A stretch of 64,000 bases of DNA. Source: Octopus vulgaris. Taxonomy: Eukaryota. The DNA is taken from NCBI GenBank assembly GCA_951406725.2, contig CATOCA020000001.1:3286001-3350000 (forward strand). Direction: 5' to 3'. The notes under the pieces are model-generated. The model saw only the letters and a list, made by a program, of their open reading frames with translations, was not told where the DNA came from and searched no databases. Below, one piece after another: positions 56,640 through 64,000 of the stretch. A program made the translations under genes and the position numbers. Positions within the stretch are counted from its first letter, which is position 1. Every line of letters begins with the position of its first letter.

Positions 56640-56721
56640 TAGATAGATAGATAGATAGATAGATAGATAGATAGATAGATAGATAGATAGATAGATAGAT
56701 AGATAGATAGATAGATAGATA
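56640..56721 (+). repeat. (GATA)n array at the 3' end of Tx1 copy A
   Basis: About 20 GATA units. Confidence 0.95.
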
Positions 56722-57876
56722 AGTTTCTTTATTAGCCACACAGATGGGACAAATTACAAGGCAGAGCCTTTCTTTTGAGGGATGAAAAAAAAGTGGCGTA
56801 GGTTTTCGATCAAAAGGGGTCGTAAAAGGGAGAAAAGAAGAAAAGATAAAGAGAGGAAAAGAAACAAAAGAAAAGAAAAAGGAAAAAAGAAGAAAAAGAG
56901 GAAGAGGAACATAAACGATCGATAGGGATCGTGTATCACAGTGTCATGATGTACGGTGTAAAGGGGGAGGCAGATAAGGTTTATCCGTGGGAAGAAAAGC
57001 CTACGGAAAAAGACAACGGTAACCTCGGTCAATATTGTTATATGTTACCACATTTATTTGCAAGTGGGTAACCCTGATTTCAATTTCTGGGTTCACAGGA
57101 CTATACTCAAGGTGGCTTCCTACATTCACCCATCTTTTTTTAAAACATTCACTAGACAAAACTTGCCTCTCTACTCTCACTTTCCTCTTCAAGTGATACA
57201 TGAAGAAGTTGATGAGAGATTGACCAGAGAGGAAAGTGTTTGTCTCCAATCCTTTCAGACGCGTCCACCAGATGCATTTCTTTCGCCATAGCCACAAGGA
57301 TGATGAAAATAGCTCTTCCTTCCCGTTTGAAGGAAAGAGGCGTGACAATATTGACGATAGACTCAGCTGATAAACCGACTCGACCCACACGTGACAGCAG
57401 TTGTTCGACATAAGCCCACAGGTCGGAAATTGTTGGACACTGCACGAGTGCGTGCGGAACGGTTATGTCGCTCTGACCGCATCTCGGGCAGGTCGGCCCC
57501 GTGTTTCTCGAACGGGTAGCGCTTTTCGGTAGCACTGCCAGGCCAGGGATCTCTGGAAGTTGTCCATGGGCCCTGGCCCGAAAATCGTCCTAAACAGGCG
57601 GGTCAGGTATTCCTCGGCGACGCCCAGGTTTGCCCCGAGATCGTCGTCGTACCTCCCCTCCACTAATCCCCTATAGAATTCTTGGGTCGTGTTGGAGTCA
57701 CTCAAGGTCGACCCGGGACGGCAGAGTTGCTTGAGAGCAACGCGACACTCGCGGTGCCATTCGCCCTTCCTCGGCCTCTTTTTGATCCACGACTGCAGTT
57801 CGGTCATGGAGACGAGTTGCGGGAAAGCGTGCCTCACAAACGGCGACCACACCTGTCCACTGTGGGCGACAACACC
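56722..57876 (-). mobile_element. Tx1/L1-type LINE copy A (older, 5'-truncated, small deletions)
   Basis: Homologous to the ORF2 C-terminus and 3' UTR of copy B. Has a 25-nt deletion at 57510, a ~23-nt deletion at 57120 and a frameshift. Ends AATAAAGAAACTT-(ATCT)n. Confidence 0.92.
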
Positions 57877-58398
57877 ATAGATAGATAGATAGATAGATAG
57901 ATAGATAGATAGATAGATAGATAGATAGATAGATAGATAGATAGATAGATAGATAGATAGATAGATAGATAGATAGATAGATAGATAGATAGATAGATAG
58001 ATAGATAGATAGATAGATAGATAGATAGTTAGATAGATAGATAGATAGATAGATAGATAGATAGATAGATAGATAGATAGATAGATAGATAGATAGATAG
58101 ATAGATAGATAGATAGATAGATAGATAGGCAGATAGATGATAGATAGATAGATAGATAGATAGATAGATAGATAGATAGATAGATAGACAGACAGACAGA
58201 CAGATAGATAGATAGATAGATAGATAGATAGATAGATAGATAGATAGAAAGATAGATAGATAGATAGATAGATAGATAGATAGATAGATAGATAGATAGA
58301 TAGATAGATAGATAGATAGATAGATAGATAGATAGATAGATAGATAGATAGATAGATAGATAGATAGATAGATAGATAGATAGATAGATAGATAGATA
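57877..58398 (+). repeat. (GATA)n array between copies A and B
   Basis: About 130 units with a few GACA/GGCA variants. Confidence 0.95.
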
Positions 58399-63447: not shown

Positions 63448-63492
63448 AGATAGATAGATAGATAGATAGATAGATTGATAGATAGATAGATA
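63448..63492 (+). repeat. (GATA)n array between copies C and D
   Basis: About 11 units. Confidence 0.95.
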
Positions 63493-63766
63493 AGTTTCTT
63501 TATTGGCCACACAGGGCTGCACACAGATGGGACAAGTTACAAGGTAGAGCTTTTCTTTTGGGGGATGAAAAAAAAGGGGTGGCGTAGGTTTTCGATCAAG
63601 AGGGATCGTAAAAGGGAAGAAAAGAACAAAAAAAATAATAAAAAATGAAAAAATAAATAGAATAAAAAATAAAAGAATAAAAGAAAAAAAAAGAAAGGGA
63701 AAAGGAACAAAAGAAAAGAGAAAAAAGAAGAAAAAGGGGAAAAAAGGGGAAGAGGAAAAAAAACGA
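63493..63766 (-). mobile_element. Tx1/L1-type LINE copy D (3' UTR only, A-like subfamily)
   Basis: Ends AATAAAGAAACTT-(ATCT)n. Shares A-type diagnostic sequences cagatgggacaa and gtggcgtaggttttcgatcaa. Confidence 0.88.
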
Positions 63767-64000
63767 GATAGATAGATAGATAGATAGATAGATAGACAGA
63801 CAGACAGACAGATAGATAGATAGATAGATAGATAGATAGATAGATAGATAGATAGATTGATAGATAGATAGATAGATAGATAGATAGATAGATAGATAGA
63901 TAGATAGATAGATAGATAGATAGATAGATAGATAGACAGACAGACAGACAGATAGATAGATAGATAGATAGATAGATAGATAGATAGAGCGATAGATAGA
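63767..64000 (+). repeat. (GATA)n/(GACA)n array running off the window end
   Basis: Seen directly. Confidence 0.95.

What the first reader, a model, noticed from the sequence alone, without database searches (positions are those of the whole stretch)
56640..64000. Candidate (GATA/TATC)n-microsatellite-targeting Tx1-type LINE building a head-to-tail array
Seen: four copies (A 56722-57876, B 58399-60979, C 61097-63447, D 63493-63766), all with their sense strand on the TATC strand and each with (GATA)n at both junctions. The 3' ends are in the same register (AATAAAGAAACWT then ATCT...). The four 5' truncation points differ, and there are two 3'-UTR subfamilies (A/D and B/C) of different apparent age. 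Different truncations and subfamilies imply independent retrotranspositions into one microsatellite rather than segmental duplication. Known: the Tx1 group includes sequence-specific LINEs, among them Kibi (TC repeats) and Koshi (TTC repeats), and R1-clade SART/TRAS target telomeric repeats. I do not know of a described GATA-specific Tx1 family in cephalopods. Inference: a GATA-specific APE endonuclease, with each insertion leaving target on both sides so the array keeps attracting copies.
Basis: partly seen in the sequence, partly recalled or inferred. Interest (0 to 1): 0.9.

Follow-up and report, generated by a model that had tools for sequence, protein, structure and literature searches.

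The report
Jumping gene that targets GATA repeats
A young family of mobile DNA elements with about 9,400 copies in this genome sits at one fixed point of GATA repeats and piles up head to tail, a target likely chosen by its own DNA-cutting enzyme, while a close sister family uses ATT repeats instead.

Summary
Confirmed and extended. The four copies are real, and two more lie just past the window edge. They belong to a young 6.06-kb L1-group LINE (APE endonuclease, RT, zinc finger). It has 9,428 3' ends genome-wide, 6,787 followed by ATCTATCT. In an unbiased sample, 67 of 92 resolved 5' junctions abut (TATC)n, against 0.6% background. Copies at array edges or outside arrays show 5-17 bp target duplications starting at TAT and carry no (TATC)n tail, so the repeat is a pre-existing target. 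Two sister families share the lineage: one also on (TATC)n (82% identical ORF2), one on (ATT)n (72%), with no cross-use. Their endonuclease hairpin loop is almost identical, so the switch likely lies elsewhere: another loop, or pairing by read-through RNA. The oldest subfamily sits mostly off-array (0 of 8). Microsatellite-targeting Tx1 LINEs are known (Kibi, Koshi, crocodilian Tx1). A (TATC)n target was not found in 10 paper searches, but Repbase and Dfam could not be searched. Tx1 membership by phylogeny was untestable, and endonuclease specificity is inferred. Verdict: a new variant of a known kind.

The parts
56631..56721 (.). (GATA)n array, 3' flank of copy A
   Evidence: TRF
56722..57877 (-). 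Copy A, 5'-truncated LINE (about 1.15 kb), older, with deletions; end ...AATAAAGAAACT
57877..58398 (.). (GATA)n array, about 130 units, between A and B
58399..60979 (-). Copy B, 5'-truncated young LINE (2.58 kb), 99.4% identical to intact full-length copy L111
58776..60977 (-). Open 733-aa C-terminal part of ORF2: RT (aa 95-344) and zf-RVT (aa 567-619)
60979..61096 (.). (GATA)n array between B and C
61097..63447 (-). Copy C, 5'-truncated young LINE (2.35 kb), 98.6% to L111, one in-frame stop near 62155
63447..63492 (.). (GATA)n spacer, 11 units, between C and D
63493..63766 (-). Copy D, 3' UTR only (274 bp), end ...AATAAAGAAACT
63766..64000 (.). (GATA)n array running past the window edge to copies E and F in the neighbouring stretch L031

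Best explanation
This is a young L1-group LINE that sits at one fixed phase of pre-existing (TATC)n microsatellites, likely because its APE endonuclease nicks the GATA strand at GATA^GATA to prime reverse transcription. Shown: the domain layout, the fixed 3' register, the flank bias, 5-17 bp target duplications that start at TAT, the lack of a (TATC)n or poly(A) tail, random 5' truncation with microhomology, and tandem piling. Inferred: the nick uses a short core, TAT(C/A/T)T on the top strand, which a (TATC)n array offers every 4 bp. The second strand is cut up to about 15 nt downstream. The RNA probably runs a few bases into UAUC past its AAUAAA and pairs with the nicked strand, which would explain the clean, tail-less junction. 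Every insertion leaves target on both sides, so arrays like this one keep collecting copies from several subfamilies.
For: Intact 6,064-bp copy L111 has a 676-aa ORF1 and a 1,145-aa ORF2 with Exo_endo_phos, RVT_1 and zf-RVT. The catalytic positions of human L1 endonuclease are kept. Of 9,428 3' ends, 6,787 are followed by ATCTATCT and only 206 lack T at +2. 67 of 92 resolved 5' junctions are (TATC)n (30 of 36 young copies) against 0.6% background, while (TA)n, (TG)n and (TTA)n are commoner at 5.8, 1.4 and 1.4%. Among 88 loci chosen for a non-array 3' flank, 21 show a duplication starting right after the terminal base (read by eye). L318, L341, L342, L353, L272 and L262 have a long array on the 5' side only, and their duplication spans the last unit plus non-repeat bases. 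L332 is a full-length 99% copy in unique DNA with duplication TATTG and no repeat on either side. 5' microhomology occurs in 35 of 59 junctions against 25% expected. In two other runs, 92 and 54 contigs continue from the 3' end into CTATCTATC. Published precedent: Tx1-group target choice is said to be mainly set by the endonuclease (PMC4494074, passages), and purified Tx1L-EN nicks its own target almost exclusively (PMC1950540, passages).
Against: No biochemistry. The hairpin loop usually linked to target read-out is almost the same in the (TATC)n and (ATT)n families (WSNRIGSSRSY, WTNRVGSSRSY, WTNRIGSSRSY), so that loop does not explain the switch; PMC1950540 also found loop grafts do not transfer specificity. 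25 of 92 resolved 5' junctions were not scored as (TATC)n and 12 had it on neither side. The oldest subfamily has it at 0 of 8 5' junctions against 63 of 79 for the others (Fisher p 1e-5). 67 of the 88 off-array loci show no clear duplication. Copy F, at the upstream end of this array, and L048 lack the 5' repeat. The unbiased sample comes from the first 16 Mb of one contig.
Confidence: 0.7

Rival explanations
1. RNA-guided target memory. All three families share a relaxed endonuclease that nicks at TAT-like sites. Which microsatellite is used is decided mainly by the read-through 3' end of the RNA (UAUC or AUU repeats copied from the donor's flank) pairing with the nicked strand, so the target is inherited from the donor site.
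For: Same hairpin loop in both target classes, and both targets share the core TAT. AATAAA lies only 7 nt before the junction and none of the 99 3' flanks listed starts with an A run. In three duplications the 3' copy reads TAT or TATCT where the 5' copy reads TAC, AAT or TATCC (L303, L317, L359). The (ATT)n family ends in a degenerate repeat unit, ATTGATT, with variants ATTAATT and ATTCATT. Six of 100 full-length 5' ends share an out-of-phase CCTATCTACAC, suggesting flank bases are copied. Read-through pairing raises R2Ol efficiency (PMC6795142, passage).
Against: The searches required ATAT at the 3' side, which biases those mismatches, and two others (L309, L334) point away. Off-array insertions with only TAT in common succeed and carry no extra units. 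The APE domains differ at 32% of sites, including a 3-residue-longer loop after GDWN in the (ATT)n family.
Confidence: 0.2
2. The element carries its own (TATC)n tail and creates the microsatellites; the 5' arrays grew later from short duplicated seeds.
For: 13 of 92 copies scored as repeat on the 3' side only. Copy F has a long 3' array and a unique 5' flank.
Against: 12 of 92 copies have no repeat on either side and 6 have it on the 5' side only. L332 is full-length, young and tail-less. In array-edge copies the array lies outside the duplicated bases.
Confidence: 0.04
3. Insertion is near random and the bias comes from selection or later loss of copies elsewhere.
For: Old and young subfamilies differ in flank type, so survival may shape what is seen.
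Against: The youngest copies are the most biased (30 of 36). The phase and strand are fixed. Other, commoner microsatellites are rarely used, and the sister family picks a different one: 0 of 282 versus 38 of 38 for (ATT)n.
Confidence: 0.03
4. The array is a segmental duplication or an assembly error.
For: B and C are 98.8% identical over 2.35 kb.
Against: Six copies have six different 5' ends and several sequence types. Mixed tandem clusters recur at other loci (L042, L044, L045), and other runs show the same 3' junction. The array itself was not checked with long reads.
Confidence: 0.03

Closest known systems
Kibi and Koshi (teleost Tx1-clade LINEs) and crocodilian Tx1-1_Crp group
   Same: APE-type LINEs inserted into microsatellites: (TC)n, (TTC)n, (TTCC)n and (TTTC)n according to PMC4494074 (passages and section 15 read).
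   Different: Target here is (TATC)n, with a sister on (ATT)n; the nearest named relatives are cephalopod and limpet proteins. Relationship by tree could not be tested.
Tx1L of Xenopus and Keno
   Same: Sequence-specific APE elements; Tx1L endonuclease specificity shown in vitro (PMC1950540, passages).
   Different: They target a transposon and U2 snRNA genes, single defined sites; this family uses a short core in a repeat and tolerates off-array sites.
Human L1
   Same: Best solved-structure match for ORF2 (E 1.6e-52 over residues 4-873, against 4e-20 for R2); duplications of about 5-17 bp, 5' truncation, microhomology.
   Different: L1 uses TTTT/AA and ends in poly(A) (consensus from PMC1950540; tail recalled); this family has no poly(A) and its ORF1 has a CCHC knuckle.
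Dong (R4 clade), Togen (NeSL-related), HERO, Waldo/Mino, SART/TRAS
   Same: Repeat-targeting non-LTR elements. Togen on (TG)n and some HERO on microsatellites (PMC4640811, passages); Dong on (TAA)n, Waldo/Mino on (AC)n and SART/TRAS on telomeric repeats with tandem arrays (recalled).
   Different: Dong, Togen and HERO use a restriction-like endonuclease; the others are R1 clade. The (ATT)n sister family here would share Dong's recalled target with a different enzyme class.

Membership tests
L1-group APE non-LTR retrotransposon | ORF2 with N-terminal APE endonuclease, RT and C-terminal zinc finger | tested here: met
   Pfam PF03372 E 1e-15, PF00078 E 1e-30, PF13966 E 2e-7; closest solved relative human L1 ORF2p
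L1-group APE non-LTR retrotransposon | Marks of target-primed reverse transcription: target duplication, 5' truncation, fixed 3' end | tested here: met
L1-group APE non-LTR retrotransposon | Separate ORF1 with RNA-binding fold and zinc knuckle | tested here: inconclusive
   676-aa ORF1 with CX2CX4HX4C seen by eye; no Pfam hit at E 0.1; Atlas look-alikes are CCHC/RRM-type clusters at 0.89-0.92, a lead only; the fold job did not return
Tx1 clade | RT phylogeny groups with Tx1L, Kibi, Koshi, Keno | not testable with these tools
   No named Tx1 reference came back; the tree holds unnamed relatives only
Target-specific LINE (criterion of PMC4494074: over 20% of flanks of one type) | One repeat type in more than 20% of flanks | tested here: met
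   73% of 5' junctions (67 of 92); 72% of 3' ends (6,787 of 9,428)
Target-specific LINE | Endonuclease cuts the target specifically in vitro | not testable with these tools
   needs purified protein
Kibi/Koshi families | Target (TC)n or (TTC)n | tested here: not met
   flanks are (TATC)n; (TC)n appears only in a few copies
Dong/R4, NeSL, HERO | C-terminal restriction-like endonuclease instead of APE | tested here: not met
   N-terminal APE present; R2 proteins match only the RT stretch

The most novel reading that the evidence does not exclude
A lineage of APE LINEs whose choice of microsatellite is carried by RNA rather than by the enzyme. A shared, relaxed TAT-nicking endonuclease plus read-through RNA copied from the donor's flank makes each family return to the repeat it already sits in, so a target switch, (TATC)n to (ATT)n, needs only one insertion into a new repeat. 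That would be a natural, reprogrammable RNA-guided step in an L1-group retrotransposon.
Probability: 0.2. Interest if true: 0.85.

Novelty: new variant of a known kind. Interest (0 to 1): 0.55.

Why it matters
Microsatellite targeting by Tx1-type LINEs is known, so the kind is not new. What this adds is a new target repeat and a natural experiment on a long-open question: what sets the specificity of APE-type retrotransposons. Three related families with intact ORF2 copies (82% and 72% identical) in one genome split cleanly between (TATC)n and (ATT)n while keeping the same hairpin loop. Domain swaps and 3'-end swaps can therefore separate enzyme read-out from RNA pairing. The family is also abundant (9,428 ends, at least 247 full-length 5' ends) and apparently still moving. 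It matters for octopod repeat annotation, for GATA microsatellite markers, and as a candidate safe-site insertion tool.

Tried and rejected
Placing the family against named Tx1, Kibi, Koshi or Keno proteins failed. Two homolog searches, one representative search and three cluster look-ups gave no such names. A metagenome scan gave 71 loci, mostly 25-35% identical, with no usable junctions; an (AT)n run at the end of L211 lies about 0.8 kb past the ORF and was not taken as a target. The ORF1 fold job never returned. Inheritance of flank variants (TATCTTTC, TATCTGTC) through RNA was looked for in 307 ends: the three TTTC copies belong to different 3' UTR types, so no support. A third own-genome protein search found no further family; its 6 loci were all family 1. 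No RNA holder is on record as RNA, and all runs are contigs, so the RNA ends could not be read. Ten paper searches found no report of a (GATA/TATC)n-targeting LINE. Kojima and Fujiwara 2004 and Fujiwara 2015 are not held, and the supplement of PMC4494074, whose Fig. 3 and Fig. S5 list further targets, could not be read. Repbase, Dfam and the Zenodo library of PMC13282606 could not be searched. Earlier findings of this scan: none.

Full report
Observation. The sequence and repeat scan confirm four minus-strand copies separated by GATA arrays at the stated coordinates. All four 3' ends read AATAAAGAAAC[A/T] followed by TATCTATC. Copy B holds a 733-aa open frame with RT and zf-RVT. The neighbouring stretch L031 adds copies E and F, so the array has six copies over about 10 kb; F has a unique 5' flank. 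B and C are 99.4% and 98.6% identical to an intact full-length copy.

The element. Thirteen full-length copies were fetched; 12 were parsed at 6,063-6,099 bp and the thirteenth has one change in the search motif. L111 and L115 have both frames open. L111 encodes a 676-aa ORF1 with one CCHC knuckle seen by eye and a 1,145-aa ORF2 with APE, RT and zf-RVT. The closest solved protein is human L1 ORF2p (E 1.6e-52; R2 4e-20, RT only), and the catalytic positions of the L1 endonuclease align with conserved residues. The nearest named relatives are Argonauta hians fragments (56-63%) and a run of Patella caerulea genes (30%).

Genome-wide flanks. The 20-nt 3' motif occurs 9,428 times. 6,787 are followed within 1-4 nt by ATCTATCT and 206 lack T at the second flank position. 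For the first 100 hits on contig C1, chosen without regard to flanks, 7 had the 5' junction outside the fetched DNA and 1 could not be aligned. Of the other 92, an automatic rule scored 67 as (TATC)n at the 5' junction: 61 on both sides, 6 on the 5' side only, 13 on the 3' side only and 12 on neither. Among copies at least 95% identical to a reference the figure is 30 of 36. In ten 10-kb stretches at round-number positions the same rule fires in 118 of 19,940 windows (0.6%), while (TA)n, (TG)n and (TTA)n fire in 5.8, 1.4 and 1.4%. At least 247 full-length 5' ends exist; 90 of the first 100 listed have TATCT directly upstream (by eye). Truncated young copies give 59 junctions at 55 distinct positions, 35 with microhomology against 25% expected.

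Target or tail. Two searches picked copies whose 3' flank is not an array (31 and 124 hits), giving 88 loci. In 21 of them, read by eye, a 5-17 bp duplication begins exactly after the element's last base, nearly always with TAT; lengths include 1-3 nt of microhomology. The other 67 show none, many being old or unresolved. In L318, L341, L342, L353, L272 and L262 a long array lies on the 5' side only and the duplication covers its last unit plus non-repeat bases; in L318 those bases are the start of an older copy. L332 is full-length, 99% identical, in unique DNA, with duplication TATTG and no repeat. So the element has no (TATC)n tail and no repeat head. None of the 99 3' flanks starts with poly(A).

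Other samples. Contigs of four runs were laid on L332. In X2 and X4, 92 and 54 contigs leave the 3' end into CTATCTATC, so the junction type is not an assembly artefact. In both, a contig of depth about 40 covers the unique 3' flank back to position 6421 and then has 21 letters that do not fit the element. That is exactly where an empty allele would stop matching, so this insertion is probably absent from at least one haplotype there; the letters themselves were not shown. X7, whose RNA status is a guess and which has a loose end resembling a cDNA adapter (recalled), tiles the element from its first base with no flank cover. This is a weak hint of transcription only.

Sister families. Searching the genome with relatives found a second family (ORF2 82% identical, 12 of 12 loci followed by (TATC)n) and a third (72%, 12 of 12 followed by (ATT)n). 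The third has 185 exact 3' motifs; 30 of 30 sampled are followed by (ATT)n, and 7 of the 11 copies whose alignment ended inside the fetched DNA have ATT repeats at the 5' side, two being unresolved. It forms regular 5.87-kb tandem arrays of full-length copies. Across all held loci, 0 of 282 family-1 ends are followed by (ATT)n and 0 of 38 family-3 ends by (TATC)n. An RT tree groups the two (TATC)n families (100/99) with the (ATT)n family as sister (98/91) (40 of 41 rows, P0162 dropped for short cover). The hairpin loop is nearly identical in all three; the clearest difference is the loop after GDWN, three residues longer in the (ATT)n family.

Against a simple picture. The oldest subfamily, with long terminal branches, has (TATC)n at 0 of 8 5' junctions versus 63 of 79 for the main types (Fisher p 1e-5), and many of the clean off-array duplications appear to come from such old copies. 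Either specificity was looser then, or old copies flanked by two arrays are lost by recombination between them; the data do not separate these.

Mechanism. Most likely (0.7) the endonuclease nicks GATA^GATA through a short core, helped by a few bases of read-through RNA. Precedent: PMC4494074 states that the endonuclease mainly sets the target; PMC1950540 shows Tx1L-EN is specific but that loop grafts do not carry specificity over; PMC6795142 reports that read-through pairing helps R2Ol (passages seen in each). The rival (0.2) is that read-through RNA decides between repeats; the shared loop, the shared TAT core and the target-like element ends fit it, but the junction mismatches that favour it are few and biased by the search.

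Known or new. PMC4494074 (passages, section 15) lists microsatellite targets (TC)n, (TTC)n, (TTCC)n and (TTTC)n for Tx1; its figure and supplement were not visible. PMC4640811 (passages) adds Togen on (TG)n. PMC13282606 (parts 1-2 of 3 and a supplement search) counts 13 recently active L1-Tx1 families in an octopus and says nothing there on targets. PMC11203168, PMC5753468 and PMC5786205 (passages) add nothing on this target. Ten searches found no (GATA)n-targeting LINE, but Repbase and Dfam were out of reach and may already hold it. It works like Kibi and Koshi; membership of the Tx1 clade is likely but untested. Verdict: new variant of a known kind, interest 0.55.

Noticed in passing
G000:C4:93799501-93835969; contigs C47 and C50; L364, L368, L370-L373: The (ATT)n sister family forms regular head-to-tail arrays of full-length copies with 5.87-kb period and spacers of only 3-6 ATT units; two small contigs seem to consist largely of them.
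   Followed up: partly
L374-L385: A second (TATC)n-targeting family (ORF2 82% identical, end ...GGCTACAATAAAAAGT) is interleaved with family 1 in shared arrays.
   Followed up: partly
P0171 cluster: A 30%-identical relative in Patella caerulea occurs as a run of near-consecutive gene models on one contig, suggesting a similar tandem array of a site-specific LINE.
   Followed up: no
P0006, P0010, P0021, P0025 clusters: Unnamed relatives at about 41% identity with hundreds of members on long contigs in public assemblies; their targets are unknown.
   Followed up: no
L159 / L418 (G000:C1:10528393): One old copy is followed by (GATA)n, the opposite strand of the usual target.
   Followed up: no
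full-length 5' ends: Recurrent extra bases between array and element start (CTCA doubled; CCTATCTACAC in six copies) suggest several donor loci with flank bases in the transcript.
   Followed up: partly
window 56162-56520: Two tandem 184-bp units, 87% alike, resembling a dispersed SINE-like repeat also seen in L353.
   Followed up: no
window 38885-39523: 84-bp period array typical of a C2H2 zinc-finger exon (recalled pattern).
   Followed up: no
window 1-1080 and 52602-54384: A 1.08-kb (GAT)n array and an AG-rich satellite with about 107-bp period.
   Followed up: no
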